Below, one piece after another: positions 3,360 to 62,234 of a stretch of DNA of 64,000 bases. The DNA is taken from the NCBI GenBank assembly GCA_951406725.2, contig OX597833.1, positions 50,902,001 to 50,966,000 of the forward strand, given 5' to 3'. Position 1 is the first letter of the stretch; each line of letters starts with the position of its first letter. Position numbers and translations under genes: made by a program. The DNA is from Octopus vulgaris (lineage: Eukaryota). A model generated the notes under the pieces. The model had not been told where the DNA came from. It worked only from the letters and a program-made list of their open reading frames with translations, and made no database searches.

Positions 3360-3700
3360 ACATCGATCCCCAGCGTTTGACTGGTACCTATTTTATCGAC
3401 TCGGAAAGAATGAAAGGTAGAGTCGACGATAGCAGAATTTGAACTCTGGATCCAAAGACCAACGAAATACCTATTTCTTTACTACCCACAAGGGGCTAAA
3501 CACAGAGAGGACAAACAAGGACAGACAGACGGATTAAGTCGATTATATCGACCCCAGTGCGTAACTGGTACTTATTTAATCGACCCCGAAAGAATGAAAG
3601 GCAAAGTCGACCTCGGCGGAATTTGAACTCAGAACGTAGCGCTAGACGTAATACTGCTAAGTATTTTGCCCGGCGTGCTAACGTTTCTGCCAGCTCATCG
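3360..3700 (-). mobile_element. tRNA-derived SINE (group 2), dimeric
   Basis: Two copies of the body ATCGACCCCGAAAGGATGAAAGGCAAAGTCGACCTCGGCGGAATTTGAACTC (one decayed), joined at GAAATAC|CTATTTCTTT. Confidence 0.85.
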
Positions 3701-3722
3701 CTCTATATGTTGTCACATAATA

Positions 3723-3865
3723 CGGCGAGTTGGCAGAATCGTTAGCACGCCGGGCGAAATGCTTAGCAGTATTACGTCTGGCGTTACGTTCTGAGTTCAA
3801 ATTCCACCGAGGTCGACTTTGCCTTTCATCCTTTCGGGGTCGATTAAATAAGTACCAGTTACGAA
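3723..3865 (+). mobile_element. SINE group 2, inverted relative to 3360-3700
   Basis: GGCGAGTTGGCAGAATCGTTAGCACGCCGGGCG...GAGTTCAAATTCC...GCCTTTCATCCTTTCGGGGTCG. Confidence 0.85.
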
Positions 3866-3932
3866 CTTAGTAGCTTAGAGTCGGCTCGAATTAGACATTA
3901 TTTTTTGTGGCTCATGGCGTGAGCCCTGGTTG

Positions 3933-7099: not shown

Positions 7100-7300
7100 A
7101 CACAGACACACAGACACACACCCAAACACAAAAACACACACACACAAAAGGGCTTCTTTCAGTTTCCGAGTACCCAATGTACTGACAAGGCTTTTGTTGG
7201 CCCGAGGGTATAGTAGACAAAACTTGCCTAAGGTGGCACACAGTGGGACTGAACCCCGAACTATGTGGTTGGGAAGCAAGCCTTTTACCACTGAACCACG
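7100..7300 (-). mobile_element. SINE group 1, 5' half, diverged
   Basis: CTTCTTTCAGTTTCCG...CTTGCCTAAGGTGGCACACAGTGGGACTGAACCC. Confidence 0.75.
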
Positions 7301-7329
7301 AATAAACGTTGAAGGAATATAAACGTTGA

Positions 7330-7486
7330 AGGAGTGGCTGTGTGGTAAGTAGCTTGCTAACCAACCGCATGGTTCCGGGTTCAGTCCCACTGCGTGGCAC
7401 CTTGGGCAAGTGTCTTCTGCTATAGCCCCGGGCTGACCAATTCCTTGTGAGTGGATTTGGTAGACGGAAACTGAAAGAAGCCTGTC

Positions 7487-11041: not shown

Positions 11042-12135
11042 TTAGATGAGGAGGGGGGGAGAGTTGAGACCAAATGGCGTATAAGAGCGAAGAGAGAAGA
11101 TTAATTCCTGTTCACGGCGCAAACGGGAATCCGGATGGCCTCTGTGTAAGGACAAACCGAACACAGATAGGTGTTGCAAGGAGTGACCGGTGGAGCGGAA
11201 ATGACGTGAGACCGGTGTGTCGTTCGCAAGGTGGATGTCACGAAGGTGTTCCGCGAACCGGTCAGCCAAGCGGCGTCCCGTTTGTCCGATATACAAGGAA
11301 TGGCAGAGAGAGCAAGAGACGCAATAGATAATATTGCTGGAGGTGCAGGTGAAGGAGTGGATGATGGGATAGGGTCGATGGTGGGTGCTAGTGAGGAGGG
11401 TGGTGTTGGAGAGGTAAGGGCAAGTGCGGCAACGTGGGCGGGAGCAGGGGAACGAGCCGGGTTGGGAGGTAGGGTCAGGGAAGGAGCTATGGACCAAAAG
11501 GTCTCGAAGGTTGTGGGCTCGTTTGAAAGAGGGGAGGGGTCGGTTAGGGAAGAGGTGTGAAGTGGACGGGTCGGACTGGAGATGACGGAAAGCTCGAAGA
11601 ATGGTGCGTTGGAGACGTAGGGCCGTGGGGTGGTAAGTGAGGGGAAAAGGGAGGCGGGAGACTACAGGGCGGGTTCGGGGAGAGAGAGCAGATACACGGT
11701 CCACGGACCGTGCTCTGGCAAGGGCGGTGTGGATAGTGGTGAGGGGGTATCCACGTAGGGTGAAGTGGTGAGCCATACGTTGAGACTGAGTCTCAAAGTC
11801 ATGGTCGTCACTACAGAGCCTACGTAGACGGAGGAACTGGGAATAGGGGATGGAAAGCTTGGTGTGTTCTGGGTGGGAGGAAGAGAAGTTGAGGTATGAG
11901 TGTGAGTCTGTGTGTTTGTAGTGAATGGAGGTGGTAAGAGTGGAGTGAAGAATGCTAACCGAAATGTCGAGGAAGGAGACAGAGGTGTTGGAGATAGTGG
12001 AAGTGAAGTGGAGGGCTGGATGGAAAGATTGGACGAAAGAGAGGAAGGAATCTAGATGTTCACGGGAGAGTGAGGTGGCACCGATAATGTCGTCAATGTA
12101 ACAACCATATAGTTCAGGAGTGGGACCAGTGAAAT

Positions 12136-12136
<1 letters not shown>
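11042..12136 (-). CDS. Partial Penelope-like ORF: RT C-terminal half, thumb, Cys linker and GIY-YIG endonuclease
   Basis: Motifs YIDD, FLD, YKHTDSHSYL, HP..IPYSQFLRLRRLCS, C..PRCRTC and IIYCVSC..C..LYIGQTGRRL..RF.EH. No stops over ~360 codons. The annotated start lies in the flanking microsatellite and is artefactual. Confidence 0.9.
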
Positions 12137-12171
<35 letters not shown>

Positions 12172-12534
12172 CACACACACATATCAGAACCATATTGTTT
12201 ATGTTAATATCAGTGGCTTAGCATGCGTAAGTGGCGATGTATTGATTGATTTTATAGAAAACCGAGAACCATTACAACCATCACTCCAAGAACAATATAT
12301 TTGCGTAAATATGCTTCACTCAACAGGAATCTCCACCATTAACAAGACTAATAAATGTTCATACTAGGCTAAAATCATTAAAGAAAAATGTGTATAGATC
12401 CATTAAATGCCCGGCTGCATAGCCTTGTGTCAAAATATTTATTTCGTGACTAAATTAATTGACAGCGTTAATGGCGTATGTGATAAAATATATTTAGCAT
12501 ACCGGTACTGCTTGTTAGTAGACTTAATTATTAA

Positions 12535-12995: not shown

Positions 12996-13040
12996 ATCTC
13001 TGAGCAAGATGTAAACAGTAGCAGCACGGAATCGTGAATT

Positions 13041-13282
13041 GTATTTACCACCTAAATGTGGCCGACCCATAGGGGACGATGCTACTGTTGTTCACAGTCC
13101 CAGGAAGACATCTCCTCCATCTGGCTAAAGACACACCATCAGTGTCCGATTAGTATTTGCGAAGGAAAATCATCGGTTGAAAGTGTGTCATTCGCCAGCT
13201 GGAGGCGATGAGTCTTCCTGGGGCAACAAACAACAGTAGTATCGTCCTCTATGTGTCCGCCACATATAGGTGGTAAATATAC
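13041..13282. mobile_element. Imperfect palindromic (foldback/MITE-like) element
   Basis: Arms of ~95 bp: GTATTTACCACCTAAATGTGG...CCCAGGAAGACATC...GACACAC versus GTGTGTC...GTCTTCCTGGG...CCACATATAGGTGGTAAATATAC. Confidence 0.65.
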
Positions 13283-13508
13283 TTCGCGATATATATTATA
13301 TATATATATATATACTTCGCGATATATATTATATATATTTTTTTTTTCTTGGGGCTGGCCGAGTTGGAGCAAATATCAGAATTGAACAGCCGAAATTTGC
13401 TATGATGATTCGGTGTCTGACTGAAGATTGAAGGCTTCGAATGATTTGTCTGTGTTCCGTGTTTGTCCCTTCCTGTATTTCACGTTCTTTATATATAAAA
13501 CATTTGTT

Positions 13509-16568: not shown

Positions 16569-17405
16569 CAGGGTGGTGGGGGTGTTACTGTTGCATTTAG
16601 CCCCAGGCGAACATCGACGTCACCAGAAAGGCTAGACACCGTCACGGTGCCCTTATCCTGCAAAGGGAGGTAATTTCCCGATGAAGCGGAAACCACACAC
16701 GGACCATGGTTTCAAGGTGTATTGCCTATCGTCGGCGTGTGGTAGGCTTCCGCTTCCTCGACGAATTCTCACTCTGCAGGATATTCATATATAGATTTTC
16801 AAGCAAAATACATTTGCTGATCTCAAGCCTACCACACGCCGACGATAGGCAATACACCTTGAAACCATGGTCCGTGTGTGGTTTCCGCTTCATCGGGGAA
16901 TTACCTCCTTTGCAGGATAAGGGCACCGTGACGGTGTCTAGCCTTTCTGGTGACGTCGATGTTCGCCTGGGGCTAAATGCAACAGTAACACCCCCACCAC
17001 CCTGCCCTGTCCCTAGCCATATTCAGATGGCTTTAGTCCCTTATGTTATCGAGCAGTTACTGTCTATATCTCTTTTAGAGAATTATTATTGCTTTCGAAC
17101 AGATTTTCGAGATCAGCAAATGTATTTTGCTTGAAAATCTATATATGAATATCCTGCAGAGTGAGAATTCGTCGAGGAAGCGGAAGCCTACCACACGCCG
17201 ACGATAGGCAATACACCTTGAAACCATGGTCCGTGTGTGGTTTCCGCTTCATCGGGGAATTACCTCCCTTTGCAGGATAAGGGCACCGTGACGGTGTCTA
17301 GCCTTTCTGGTGACGTCGATGTTCGCCTGGGGCTAAATGCAACAGTAACACCCCCACCACCCTGCCCTGTCCCTAGCCATATTCAGATGGCTTTAGTCCC
17401 TTATG

Positions 17406-17481: not shown

Positions 17482-17920
17482 GCACGCACACACGCATAGA
17501 TAATTTGATAGACAGACAGACAGATAGGTAGATAGATAGATTCCATGTTCTTTTCTCTCATTGATGCGGTCTTTATGATATGTGCTAGCCCTCCTTTCAG
17601 CGCTTAGAACCATTTGTGATGAAGCAACGCTGAGTGTTTCGTACGATTAAAAGTAAGAGCTGCAACCCGGGCACAAGGCCAGCAAGCTTGGAGGTGGGTA
17701 TCAAGTCGATTACTTTAACCCAAGTTTTCAACTGGTACTTATTTTATCGACACCGAAAGTATGAAAGGCAAAATCAACCTCAGCAGAATTTGAACTCAGG
17801 ACATAAATATAATAAAACAAAACCAGACGAAATGCAGTTAGGCATTTTGTCCGCAACGTACCAACGGTTCTGCCAGTTACCCGCATTAACCTGATGGTGA
17901 TATTATCGCGCTGAAGGTCG

Positions 17921-18131
17921 CTGAGCTGGCAGAATCGTTAGCACGCCGGGCGAAATGCCGAGCGGTATTTCGTCTGCCGTTACGTTGTGAGTTCAAATTT
18001 CGTCGAGATCGACTTTGCCTTTCATCCTTTCGGGGTCGATTAAATAAGTACCAGTAACGCACTGGGGTCGATATAATCAACTTAATCTCTTTGTCTCCTT
18101 TATGTTTAGCCCCCTGTGGGCAATAAAGAAA
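17921..18131 (+). mobile_element. SINE group 2, head-to-head with an older copy at ~17670-17890
   Basis: Group 2 head, body and tail. Confidence 0.85.
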
Positions 18132-21368: not shown

Positions 21369-21778
21369 CTATGTGTTTTCATATATTCGTATATATTCCA
21401 TAAGTGTGTACATGCGTGCTTGTGCGACTATTTACTTGATGTTGCCGTGTGCATGTACGTGTATGCATGTGTGTGCGTGTGTGTGTATGAGTATCTGTCT
21501 AAACTAGGGATTTTCAACGTTTTTTTTTGTACCATGCTGGTCTCTTTCACTGAGTGGTGTCGTAGAAGTGATCCCTCCGCATGATTTACAAGATAAGTTT
21601 TAAAATAAATAAACATAGGCGCAGATGTGGCTGTGTGGAAAAAAGCTTACTTCGCAGCCACATGGTTCCGGGTTCAGCCCCACTATGTGGCACATTGGCC
21701 AAGTGTCTTCTACTATAGCCTCGGGCTGACCAAAGTATTGTGAGTGGATTTTGTAGACAGAAACTGAAAGAAACCCGC

Positions 21779-21814
<36 letters not shown>

Positions 21815-21816
<2 letters not shown>

Positions 21817-22475
21817 TGTGACTACTCAGTGGGATCTGTCTAGTAGGGAGGTTTCGTATTTTTTGTCGGTGAATAGTCAGTCTGTTTCTTAGAGTAAGCG
21901 TCATTTGACCTATGTAATCTCCATTACATCCTTGACAGTTGATAACGTATATTAAATTGCTTGAAGAACCTGTAAAGTAAATTTTAACGGTAAAAGTCTG
22001 TCCTGATTTGAATCTTCATGTTGTGTCTTCAATAAGTGTGATGCAGGTCTCGCTATTGGGGCGGCCACATTTTTTGACCGTTGGTGTATGAATTGTGAAA
22101 GGTAATTTAAAATTTGTGGGAATACTTTTAGGGACTTTGATTGTATTTTACTTTTGATCATTTTGTGTATTTCAAAAGCTTGTTTCATTCTTGGGTCTTG
22201 TTTTAGTAGTGCGATGTTCTGATGGATAATATTGTAAATCTCTGTGTTTCTTGTGTTATGTATTGTAATAAGGGGTAGATTAATGGATTATCTGGAGCGT
22301 TTTTCGTTTTTCGTAGTTCTTCGATATTTATTGCCTTGGCACGTTCGACTCCGTTGTCCATTAGCATTAATGGATAATATCTTTTAAGTAGTACTTGTTT
22401 TACTTCTCGGAGACTTTTATTGCGACTTTCAGGGTTTGATACAGTTGTGCAGATTCTACTTGTTAGATTGAAGAC
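21815..22475 (-). pseudogene. Decayed Penelope-like ORF fragment (thumb + GIY-YIG)
   Basis: Minus-strand peptides NLTSRICTTVSNPESRNKSLREVKQVLLKRYYP and YVINCQGCNGDYIGQMTLTLRNRLTIHRQKIR, interrupted by frameshifts. Confidence 0.75.
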
Positions 22476-33752: not shown

Positions 33753-33877
33753 GGTCCCGGGTTGAGTCGGGGTTAACCACAGTAAATAAGGTACTCAATA
33801 CTTAGCAGAGTAAATTAATTTATTTTATAGAAGGAGCTTCTATAGGAGTTCTAGTCCTGTAGAAGCTCCTTCTATAA

Positions 33878-33913
<36 letters not shown>

Positions 33914-33950
33914 CAAGATAATATATATATATATATACATATATATATAC

Positions 33951-34833: not shown

Positions 34834-35671
34834 CATCATACATACATATATATATATATATATACATTCCTTTGGAATAATACCAGTGATATCTTCGAAA
34901 CATGTGTCGGAAGTAAAAGAATTCGAATAACACCTGCGTTTAACTCCATTTTTATATATATATATATATACATATATACATACATACATACATACATACA
35001 TACATTCTTATTAATATTTAGTAGAAGGAACGGAGTGACTCAAGAACTGAGAGTTTCGTGCGTTAGCACATATCAAACTAGTTACAGACTGACGACTATC
35101 CATAACTAGTTTGATGAGAGTTCAAGGACGAAATTATCGCCCTTCTGTTACTTTTACTAAATATCGATATATATATATAACATAACCGTAGACCGTTACA
35201 AATACTCACATGATACACTCTGAACCGAACCACAACCTATCCATATATTCATACGCATACTTGCGTGTATGAATATATACATATGTTGCGTGCATCACAT
35301 TACATACAGACACACTTTTAAACATACATGTATGTGTGTGTGTGTGTCAGTGTTCGTGCGCGCGTGTATGTCAGCGTATGATAAATATTGATACTTATTG
35401 AATACAAAACGGAAAAGAATGAGATGAAATGGTATTTGAAGGAATATACAGAACAGAAAGAAAACTAAATAAAGAGTCAATTTATAATATTATGAGAAAG
35501 GGAAAACGAAAAAGAAAAAAAAAGGAAAGTGTAAAATGAACGGTAAGTAAAATCGATGAAATAATAAATGACAATTAATAGATTTATAAAAATAAGGAAA
35601 TTGGAAGCAAATATCGAAATAAATGCACTGAGAGATGGATATATCGATAGGTTGTTAGATATATCGATTGG

Positions 35672-42609: not shown

Positions 42610-42842
42610 TTTCTTTACTACCCACAAGGGGCTAAACATAGAGGGGACAAACAAAGACAGACAAAGGGATTAAGTCGATTACATCGACCCCAGTGCATAA
42701 CTGGTACTTAATTTATCGACCCCGAAAGGATGAAAGGCAAAGTCGACCTCGGCGGAATTTGAACTCAGAATGTAACGACAGACGAAATACGGCTACGCAT
42801 TTCGCCCGGCGTGCTAACGTTTCTGCCAGCTCGCAGCCCTTT

Positions 42843-42924
<82 letters not shown>

Positions 42925-43200
42925 TGTGTATAAAAAAAAGGAAAGATATTTTGTTCGGGGGGCGAGCTGGCAGAAAAGTTAGCACGCGAGGCGAAATGCT
43001 TAGCAGTATTTCGTCTGCCGCTACGTTCTGAGTTCAAATTCCGCCGAGGTCGACTTTGCCTTTCATCCTTTCGGGCTCGATTAAATAAGTACCAGTTACG
43101 CACTGGGGTCGATATAATCGACTTAATCCCTTTGTGTCTCCTTGCTTGCCCCCTCTGTGTTTGACCCCTTGTGGGTAGTAAAGAAATAGGTATCTCGTTC
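42610..43200. mobile_element. Inverted (head-to-head) pair of SINE group 2 copies around (TG)n
   Basis: 42610-42835 (-) and 42959-43200 (+). Confidence 0.88.
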
Positions 43201-60900: not shown

Positions 60901-60970
<70 letters not shown>

Positions 60971-61017
60971 ATGAATGAAAGAATGGAATCGAACGATGAT
61001 TTAACAAAATTCCTTTA

Positions 61018-61100
61018 TTCTCGACATAGGTTTCGAAGACTGCATATTCTCAATTCCGAAGGAATAAAGGGTGCATTATGCCGCCTTCTCATCAGGAAAA
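61018..61100 (-). ncRNA. Mirror-image hammerhead in the left arm of the palindrome
   Basis: Same motif on the minus strand. Stem III reads ACCTATGT (one substitution). Confidence 0.72.
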
Positions 61101-61239
61101 ACAAGGAACTTATGCCAGCATCATGACGAACAAAAACTTTTAGATGACTGCCCACACGGAGTCCATAGTGATAATGGACTCCGTGTGGGCAGTCATCTAA
61201 AAGTTTTTGTTCGTCATGATGCTGGCATAAGTTCCTTGT

Positions 61240-61322
61240 TTTTCCTGATGAGAAGGCGGCATAATGCACCCTTTATTCCTTCGGAATTGAGAATATGCAG
61301 TCTTCGAAACATATGTCGAGAA
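61240..61322 (+). ncRNA. Type-I hammerhead ribozyme with canonical core and long stem II
   Basis: TTTTC-CTGATGA-GAAGGC...GTCTTC-GAAA-CATATG-T-C-GAGAA, with a GUC cleavage triplet at 61315-61317 and palindromic stem III ACATATGT. Confidence 0.8.
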
Positions 61323-61522
61323 TAAAGGAATTTTGTTAAATCGTCGTTCGACTCCATTCTTTCATTCATTTATAATAAAAAAACACACAAATTTCCTCAC
61401 AAAAGCACGTGATTTCTACCCTTGGCATGTAGCTTCAACCGTGATTTCTGACGTAAATTTGCTACCCGGGTATCGGTTAACCGAATTATCCATACTAGGA
61501 TAATTCATTCAACTACTTAAAC

Positions 61523-61555
<33 letters not shown>

Positions 61556-61556
61556 T

Positions 61557-61609
<53 letters not shown>

Positions 61610-61610
61610 T

Positions 61611-61655
<45 letters not shown>

Positions 61656-61837: not shown

Positions 61838-61896
61838 TACCATATTGGTCCAATTTCGGGGTTAATTCACAAGAAATTTTCCCCTCTTCAGCGGCA
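61838..61896 (-). ncRNA. Type-I hammerhead ribozyme with canonical core
   Basis: TGCCG-CTGAAGA-GGGG..19 nt..CCCC-GAAA-TTGG A CCAA-T-A-TGGTA. All three stems pair; stem I includes two G-U pairs. Confidence 0.72.
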
Positions 61897-62000
61897 CATA
61901 CGAGAGATATAAATTAAATACTTATTCATACCCATGGAAGAAGCAAGCACCAAGTCCCGAGGAAGACTTAAGTACCCTAAATATAAACAAAATAAAAAAA

Positions 62001-62169
62001 TCTTCGGCGCACCTCGAGACACGTGTGATTCGAACCATTGATAAAATTTTTTTCCCGAAAAAATTTTTATCCTATATTAATTATAAATAGATTAGTGTTC
62101 ACTTCCGGATTCTATCACTCTGTGAAAGTTTCTAGTTCGAATCACACGTGTCTCGAGGTGCGCCGAAGA
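62001..62169. repeat. 35-bp perfect inverted repeat with ~100-bp spacer
   Basis: TCTTCGGCGCACCTCGAGACACGTGTGATTCGAAC / GTTCGAATCACACGTGTCTCGAGGTGCGCCGAAGA. Confidence 0.9.
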
Positions 62170-62234
62170 TTAGAACTAGTTCTTTCTCTCTTAGTAAGAA
62201 ATCTAGGAATAAATCTGAATAACTAACGTGATAA

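What the first reader, a model, noticed from the sequence alone, without database searches (positions are those of the whole stretch)
60971..61369. 399-bp palindrome encoding a hammerhead ribozyme on both strands
Seen: a near-perfect inverted repeat next to (TA)n. Each arm holds a complete type-I hammerhead (CUGAUGA core, 6-bp basal stem II extended by GCAUA/UAUGC and a possible cUUCGg loop, GAAA, GUC site), both pointing outward. Known: Penelope-like elements carry hammerheads in their terminal repeats and form inverted termini, and loopless palindromic stem III is associated with dimeric cleavage. Inference: this is a young, protein-free, ambisense ribozyme element. A transcript of either strand folds into a ~200-bp rod in which the ribozyme lies downstream of its own antisense copy. 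That could be a self-locked ribozyme, a dsRNA source for siRNA or ADAR editing, or a viroid/retrozyme-like unit. It may instead be a one-off inverted duplication of a PLE terminus.
Basis: partly seen in the sequence, partly recalled or inferred. Interest (0 to 1): 0.8.

Follow-up and report, generated by a model that had tools for sequence, protein, structure and literature searches.

The report
Penelope-type head-to-head ribozyme repeat insertion
The 399-base palindrome and its two hammerhead motifs are real, but they are part of a lopsided 552-base insertion of a very common repeat, most likely a routine head-to-head footprint of Penelope-type jumping-gene enzymes whose mirror centre likely marks where the repeat's RNA begins, and whose ribozymes are predicted to be locked in any read-through transcript.

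Summary
The palindrome (60971-61369, 3 mismatches, 7-nt loop) and a type I hammerhead motif in each arm are real. Only the right arm has the palindromic helix III. The element is larger than reported: the right copy runs about 153 nt further, to a second (TA)n, giving a 552-bp insertion. It belongs to a high-copy repeat held under four species labels. Contigs crossing this centre, or centres a few bases away, occur in 4 of 4 runs, so it is neither an artefact nor a one-off. Many copies end at 61173-61175, about 28 nt behind a TATA-like box, so the centre likely marks the RNA start. Best reading: two short cDNAs of the RNA's 5' part, joined head to head at a 2-3-nt microhomology during a Penelope-type insertion. 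Inverted copy, one-sided tail and hammerhead are published PLE features (PMC3846280, PMC8557442), and this scan noted the pattern before in this and other genomes. No coding parent was found, so PLE end versus non-coding retrozyme is open. Cleavage and expression are unshown.

The parts
60926..60970 (.). left (TA)n flank, the inferred target
   Evidence: sequence
60971..61175 (-). short inverted copy of the repeat, inferred RNA positions +1 (61175) to +205 (60971)
   Evidence: family contigs follow this copy through the loop to 61176
61007..61111 (-). left type I hammerhead motif: core from 61095, GAAA from 61034, predicted cut after 61023; helix III carries a change at 61029 that breaks its palindrome
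61167..61173 (.). 7-nt loop; it is family sequence (+9 to +3) belonging to the short copy
61174..61176 (.). 2-3-nt microhomology shared by the two copies at the head-to-head joint
   Evidence: loose ends behind 61176 and before 61174
61174..61522 (+). long direct copy of the repeat, inferred RNA positions +10 to about +358
61229..61333 (+). right type I hammerhead motif: helix I, core 61245-61251, long helix II 61252-61305, GAAA 61306, palindromic helix III 61309-61316, predicted cut after 61317
61370..61522 (+).
   Evidence: contigs of other copies bridge 61369/61370 (records 12, 13, 20)
61523..61655 (.). right (TA)n-rich flank
   Evidence: sequence

Best explanation
This is a 552-bp insertion in a (TA)n tract made of two head-to-head copies of one high-copy hammerhead-bearing repeat, and it was likely built during a single Penelope-type integration, when two short cDNAs of the likely 5' part of the repeat's RNA were joined at a 2-3-nt microhomology. 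Shown: a short copy (60971-61175, minus strand) and a long copy (61174-61522, plus strand) overlap by 2-3 nt; both cross the predicted cut site intact; many family copies end at 61173-61175; others end near 61358-61374 in TA repeats. Inferred steps: (1) a PLE RT/GIY-YIG protein nicks both strands of (TA)n; (2) each 3' end primes reverse transcription at one of two internal start regions (about +205 and +358), which leaves the tail on one side; (3) both cDNAs run to near the RNA 5' end (+1 and +10); (4) their 3' ends anneal and prime each other's second strand. The centre recurs because the RNA start and the nearest microhomology are fixed. The template was uncut or re-ligated at the ribozyme. 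A read-through transcript would form a 196-bp rod in which neither ribozyme folds, so the copy is probably a dead end.
For: High-copy family: 2601, 1268 and 1258 contigs laid from runs X1, X2, X3; held under four species labels. The arm-tail joint is bridged with 31 or more letters on both sides by 3 of 32 listed pieces, which differ from the window at 6-19 letters and so are other copies. Centre: 12 of 32 listed rows cross it, in 4 of 4 runs; 7 without gap, 5 with net +4, +4, +4, -6 or -1 letters; record 17 of X6 lies twice with about 20 letters between. Preferred 5' boundary: among 24 listed loose-end rows, 24 contigs stop at 61173-61175 with mixed or TA flanks (agreement 0.54-0.77, 4 of 4 runs) and 26 go on into shared upstream sequence. 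That upstream sequence has TATAA starting 28 nt before 61175 in 5 of 7 listed consensus rows, and one letter off in 2 (read by hand). The loop belongs to the short copy, so a plain fold-back of that strand could not give the longer arm. Literature: inverted 5'-truncated copy, tail at one end, hammerhead in the pLTR (PMC8557442); head-to-head junction palindromes, TATA plus Inr in the pLTR (PMC3846280); both strands cut and extended, two internal RT starts, uncut RNA as template (PMC11167929); (TA)n targeting and canonical hammerheads in Hydra-clade PLEs.
Against: No RT or GIY-YIG ORF is linked to this family in anything I could see; no genome was held. The tail is 153 nt, not the published 30-40 nt. 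No target-site duplication can be read in (TA)n. Only 3 of the 12 centre-crossing pieces meet the tool's 31-letter bridging rule (X3 records 9 and 10, X8 record 24), and gap positions were not printed. Two centre contigs in X3 have depths of 93 and 161 against 6-17 for the lowest in that run, which also fits copying of ready-made palindromes. Both arms share letters that are rare in the family (61225, at most 0.9% of depth; 61367, at most 1.3%), which a fold-back or a master palindrome explains as easily. The TATA observation is post hoc in AT-rich DNA, and I looked for it after reading earlier scan notes. D. virilis Penelope has an internal TATA-less promoter (PMC2377424), so the short copy might still be transcribed.
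Confidence: 0.6

Rival explanations
1. Same family and enzymes, but one strand: a long antisense cDNA (or antisense RNA, as Arkhipova et al. proposed) reached the RNA 5' end, folded back on its own microhomology, copied itself, and one arm was trimmed by about 150 nt when the intermediate was resolved.
For: The top strand reads antisense, loop, sense with the 3' end able to pair 7 nt back, which is the fold-back polarity. It explains the rare letters shared by both arms. Self-priming is the published reading of PLE junction palindromes (PMC3846280), and endonuclease resolution the published reading of the tail (PMC8557442).
Against: It needs an extra trimming step that lands on the family's common short end (loose ends at 61358-61374 followed by TA). 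In vitro, a PLE protein extends both strands and starts at two sites that match the tail (PMC11167929).
Confidence: 0.22
2. One reading: the palindrome, with its tail, is a non-autonomous unit copied whole from a master, with the ribozymes on both strands playing a part.
For: The same gap-free centre occurs in at least 7 contigs in 3 runs under 2 species labels, some at high depth. The arms share rare letters. An earlier scan note on another genome reports signs of whole-hairpin copying (e1-7858790, unchecked).
Against: Several other centres cluster within a few bases and other inverted joints occur further along. The family also has non-palindromic 5' ends at the same place. The copy lacks the upstream TATA-like box, both ribozymes are predicted locked in read-through RNA, and the left helix III is degraded.
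Confidence: 0.12
3. A DNA-level event after insertion: a single copy was duplicated in inverted form by replication template switching at the microhomology.
For: Shared rare letters in both arms; the window holds several other palindromes made of unrelated repeats.
Against: Centres recur at the family's 5' boundary in 4 of 4 runs, and the outer end of the short arm matches a common family end; a random DNA event would not respect both.
Confidence: 0.04
4. Assembly fold-back artefact.
For: No long read of this locus was seen; no listed piece spans the whole stretch.
Against: The arms differ at 3 sites and in length. Centre-crossing contigs occur in 4 of 4 runs from 4 studies, one identical to the window over 52 nt.
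Confidence: 0.02

Closest known systems
Complex insertions of endonuclease-bearing Penelope-like elements: inverted pLTR, tail, head-to-head junction palindrome (PMC3846280, passages read; PMC8557442, passages, section 11 and one supplement search)
   Same: Head-to-head inverted 5'-truncated copy, extension at one end only, hammerhead in the repeat, (TA)n target, TATA and Inr-like motifs near the repeat's 5' end.
   Different: No ORF in this insertion and none linked to the family here; tail 153 nt against 30-40; no readable target-site duplication.
PAc (Poseidon of Anolis carolinensis) in vitro (PMC11167929, parts 1 and 2 of 4 of the text read)
   Same: Two internal RT start regions downstream of the hammerhead would give a short and a long end; uncut RNA is the template; AT-rich target; both strands extended.
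   Different: In PAc the ORF starts inside the hammerhead and the two starts are 30-40 nt apart; here no frame shows a coding signal (9 of 30 synonymous in each of three frames). The parts I read do not treat head-to-head joints.
Metazoan non-LTR retrozymes (PMC7229834, passages; bioRxiv 10.64898/2026.07.22.740005, part 1 of 5 and passages)
   Same: Short, non-coding, high-copy, type I hammerhead with a weak palindromic helix III; proposed to derive from and ride on PLEs.
   Different: Defined by direct tandem units and circular RNAs; this locus is inverted, not tandem, and no RNA was shown. One direct-repeat joint was seen in one contig.
PLE hammerheads that work as dimers (PMC4209133, passages)
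   Same: Type I topology, large helix II, small palindromic helix III; predicted monomer helix III probability 0.02.
   Different: Helix II here is extended to about 54 nt; the two copies face apart, so they cannot form the tandem dimer on one strand.

Membership tests
Type I hammerhead ribozyme | Core CUGANGA, GAAA and NUH in order | tested here: met
   both arms
Type I hammerhead ribozyme | Helices I and II form around the core | tested here: met
   predicted pairing 0.78-0.97 for helix I and the helix II base in single-copy transcripts; 0.0 in read-through
Type I hammerhead ribozyme | Helix III, as monomer or palindromic dimer | tested here: inconclusive
   monomer 0.02; dimer duplex -7.0 kcal/mol for the right arm, +0.4 for the left
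Type I hammerhead ribozyme | Rfam RF00163 gathering score | tested here: not met
   22.7 of 34 bits, E 0.0017; the long helix II is an insert to the model
Type I hammerhead ribozyme | Self-cleavage | not testable with these tools
   no assay and no raw RNA reads
EN+ Penelope-like element insertion | RT plus GIY-YIG ORF linked to the repeat | tested here: inconclusive
   none in the insertion; only about 30 nt upstream seen; no genome; no motif match in the supplement of PMC8557442
EN+ Penelope-like element insertion | Inverted 5'-truncated copy, head to head | tested here: met
EN+ Penelope-like element insertion | Tail at one end only | tested here: met
   153 nt on the right, longer than the published 30-40 nt
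EN+ Penelope-like element insertion | Hammerhead inside the terminal repeat | tested here: met
EN+ Penelope-like element insertion | AT-rich or (TA)n target, target-site duplication where readable | tested here: inconclusive
   (TA)n on both sides; a duplication cannot be read
Non-LTR retrozyme | Direct tandem units, each with a hammerhead | tested here: not met
   not at this locus; for the family only one direct joint in one contig
Non-LTR retrozyme | Non-coding | tested here: met
   for the 350 nt seen: no frame is enriched in synonymous variants
Non-LTR retrozyme | Circular RNA intermediate | not testable with these tools
   only contigs were available
Viroid-like ambisense ribozyme RNA (definition recalled) | Circular RNA with an active ribozyme in each polarity | tested here: not met
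   genomic insertion with unequal arms; both motifs predicted locked; left helix III degraded; activity itself untested

The most novel reading that the evidence does not exclude
Same-centre palindromes of this family are a self-propagating subfamily: a host or internal promoter makes a 196-bp hairpin RNA with a free 153-nt tail, the PLE enzyme starts in that tail and copies the whole locked double ribozyme to new sites, seeding the genome with perfect dsRNA cassettes that could feed small-RNA silencing of the family or A-to-I editing.
Probability: 0.12. Interest if true: 0.6.

Novelty: new member of a known kind. Interest (0 to 1): 0.25.

Why it matters
As a locus it is ordinary retroelement debris. 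Its modest value is mechanistic. How PLEs make inverted ends is listed as open in PMC8557442, and this family gives a countable test: centres pinned to the apparent RNA start, two discrete outer ends, and a loop that belongs to the short arm. I did not find the start-anchored, two-cDNA reading in print, but earlier notes of this scan propose it for other genomes. If whole palindromes are copied as units, that would be a new way for genomes to spread perfect dsRNA cassettes.

Tried and rejected
No whole genome was held, so no genome-wide copy catalogue could be made. No RNA holder listed; runs guessed to be RNA are not evidence, including the centre-crossing piece in X7 (record 25). Metagenome scans: 0 matches and 1 match, which lies in a GC-rich bacterial transposase-like frame and is a chance 22-nt hit; dropped. 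My first idea that the arm begins with the last codons of a PLE ORF (MDSVWAVI*) was dropped: the upstream family sequence does not read as a recognisable PLE C-terminus (by hand; motif recalled). Coding in the arm and tail: 9 of 30 variants synonymous in each frame, no Pfam hit, no Atlas hit. Selection on the ribozyme fold: 9 of 12 family variants in helices keep a pair (simulation P 0.30), two pairs vary on both sides (P 0.24), 0 of 25 variable arm sites fall in core or helix III (P 0.065); none is significant. A-to-I editing as source of the shared rare letters: three or four transitions, too few to test. Host gene context: 1 of 120 open frames hit Pfam, below cut-off and opposite a PLE frame; no host gene is identified. 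Rfam microRNA hits are hairpin and microsatellite artefacts below gathering scores. The sigma-70 scan does not apply to an animal. Sequence and near look-ups in earlier findings returned nothing. Only the one supplement of PMC8557442 was searched; bioRxiv supplements are closed, and Repbase entries for this family could exist unseen.

Full report
Observation. The window is AT-rich, repeat-dense animal DNA; earlier scan notes call the genome an octopus, which I did not check. The inverted repeat is real: 193 of 196 positions pair between 60971-61166 and 61174-61369 around a 7-nt loop, and the strand folds at -355 kcal/mol, z -43. A structure scan of the whole window on both strands returned 3 hammerhead-like hits; two are these arms, and the third (61891, minus) has a 4-bp helix II and was not followed up. 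Rfam gives Hammerhead_1 at 22.7 bits, E 0.0017, under the gathering score of 34. One of the three arm differences falls in helix III of the left copy and removes its self-complementarity: predicted dimer duplex -7.0 kcal/mol for the right copy, +0.4 for the left, -2.6 mixed.

The element is larger than the palindrome. A run search with 61160-61510 listed 24 runs, 20 of which hold part of it, from 9 studies and four species labels. I laid 6 of those 24. On 61137-61510, runs X1, X2, X3 and X7 gave 2601, 1268, 1258 and 256 contigs, covering all 29 bins; depth there is no copy number, but the family is clearly abundant. Cover continues right of the palindrome. Of 32 listed pieces (5401 not shown), 3 bridge 61369/61370 with 31 or more letters on each side and differ from the window at 6, 15 and 19 letters, so the extension is a family feature. 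It ends where (TA)n starts, at 61523. Other copies stop at 61358-61374 and pass into TA repeats within about 20 nt, and summed depth falls there in 4 of 4 runs. The left arm's outer end mirrors 61369, so it is this short end. The insertion is therefore (TA)n, short inverted copy, long direct copy, (TA)n: 552 bp.

The centre. Family contigs follow the left copy through the loop to 61176 and then leave into a shared upstream sequence. The loop is thus family sequence belonging to the short copy, and the two copies overlap by 2-3 nt at 61174-61176. Laying 61137-61210 on X1, X6, X3 and X8, 12 of 32 listed rows cross the centre (609 not shown; I left out X3 record 16, which has only 4 letters left of the loop). 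Seven have no gap (X1 records 4, 6, 7, 8 with 2, 1, 0, 3 other letters; X3 record 10; X6 records 22, 23). Five have net -1, +4, -6, +4, +4 letters; where the gaps lie was not printed. X6 record 17 lies twice in opposite orientation with about 20 letters between. Only 3 of the 12 meet the 31-letter bridging rule; the rest are 45-63 nt, about what junction-specific contigs can reach in a high-copy family (my reasoning). The window's tail letter at 61397 had no depth in 4 of 4 runs, so the identical centre in X1 may be another locus, though only about 80% of X1 was read. One search lists 13 joints, most linking the inverted copy to direct copies at other positions, one a direct repeat. The artefact and one-off readings both fail.

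Why the centre recurs. Of 24 listed loose-end rows (20 not shown), 7 rows with 24 contigs stop at 61173-61175 with mixed or TA flanks, in 4 of 4 runs, while 26 contigs continue upstream. Read on the element's strand, that upstream consensus has TATAA beginning 28 nt before 61175 in 5 of 7 listed rows, and 61175 is the A of an initiator-like TCATT (consensus recalled). I looked for this after reading earlier notes, and it is a short motif in AT-rich DNA, so it is a lead and not proof. With 61175 as +1, the long copy starts at +10, the predicted cut follows +153 and the two outer ends are +205 and about +358. Both copies cross the cut site intact, so the template was uncut or re-ligated.

Mechanism. 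Published PLE insertions often carry an inverted 5'-truncated copy and a tail at one end, with the hammerhead in the repeat (PMC8557442, passages). Head-to-head junction palindromes are common and were read as self-priming; the repeat holds TATA and Inr-like motifs (PMC3846280, passages). A purified PLE protein cuts AT-rich DNA, extends both strands, starts internally at two sites that define the tail, and uses uncut RNA; its hammerhead needs protein (PMC11167929, parts 1 and 2). I infer two target-primed cDNAs from +205 and +358, run to near the RNA 5' end and annealed at the microhomology (0.6). A plain fold-back of the short strand cannot make the longer arm, but fold-back of a long strand followed by trimming can, and it explains equally well the rare letters that both arms share (0.22). 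Whole-unit copying of a master palindrome stays possible (0.12) because of the repeated gap-free centre and the depths of 93 and 161 in X3. All three arm differences appear to be changes in the left copy, since the right copy has the family's common letter at each.

Ribozyme function. In a single-copy transcript helices I and II are predicted to form (0.78-0.97 for helix I and the helix II base) and helix III not (0.02), as for dimer-dependent metazoan hammerheads (PMC4209133, passages). The copy lacks the upstream TATA-like box, but Penelope of D. virilis has an internal promoter (PMC2377424, passages), so a transcript of the short copy from +1 is not excluded; it would carry the degraded ribozyme. 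Family variation is compatible with selection on the fold but not significant.

Membership and novelty. The layout meets the PLE insertion features that could be tested, except tail length; the defining ORF was not seen, so I say it works like a PLE insertion and leave open whether the family is a PLE end or a non-coding retrozyme moved by PLE enzymes (PMC7229834, passages; bioRxiv 10.64898/2026.07.22.740005, part 1 and passages). The window holds a separate PLE-like RT/GIY-YIG frame at 11042-12217 (Atlas 0.96 to clusters with GIY-YIG in 13-18% of members; no Pfam hit), with nothing tying it to this family. The scan has 54 earlier findings with these words in at least 16 genomes and many in this genome; they are unchecked notes and not independent support. 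Verdict: real, recurrent, ordinary in kind; interest 0.25.

Noticed in passing
window 11042-12217 (-): 391-codon stop-free frame with RT C-terminal part, a CxxxxCxxC linker and a GIY-YIG-like end: a 5'-truncated Penelope-like element, Neptune/Nematis-like by recalled motifs; Atlas 0.96, no Pfam hit.
   Followed up: partly
window 21713-22287 (-): Frameshifted GIY-YIG-like remnant of another Penelope-like element; no Pfam hit.
   Followed up: partly
window 34865-34953 (+): Older relative of the arm's 3' part (72% over 75 nt), with palindromic helix III but no CUGAUGA, between TA repeats.
   Followed up: partly
window 16569-17004: 436-bp palindrome with near-perfect arms of about 190 nt and a short centre, each arm with CCGATGA and a nearby GAAAC; no convincing hammerhead; family unknown.
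   Followed up: partly
window 3556-3867, 17700-18086, 42610-43186, 7151-7482: Inverted pairs of two abundant SINE-like repeats forming 310-580-bp palindromes.
   Followed up: no
window 13031-13290 and 33805-33940: A decayed 260-bp palindrome next to (TA)n and a small hairpin between TA tracts; possibly older insertions of the same kind.
   Followed up: no
window 61999-62035 and 62135-62171: Perfect 37-bp inverted repeat 100 nt apart, MITE-like.
   Followed up: no
window 61843-61891 (-): Weak third hammerhead-pattern hit (CTGAAGA core, 4-bp helix II), probably chance.
   Followed up: no
window 61462-61500: Summed contig depth rises again near the far end of the tail, which may mean related families share this part.
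   Followed up: no
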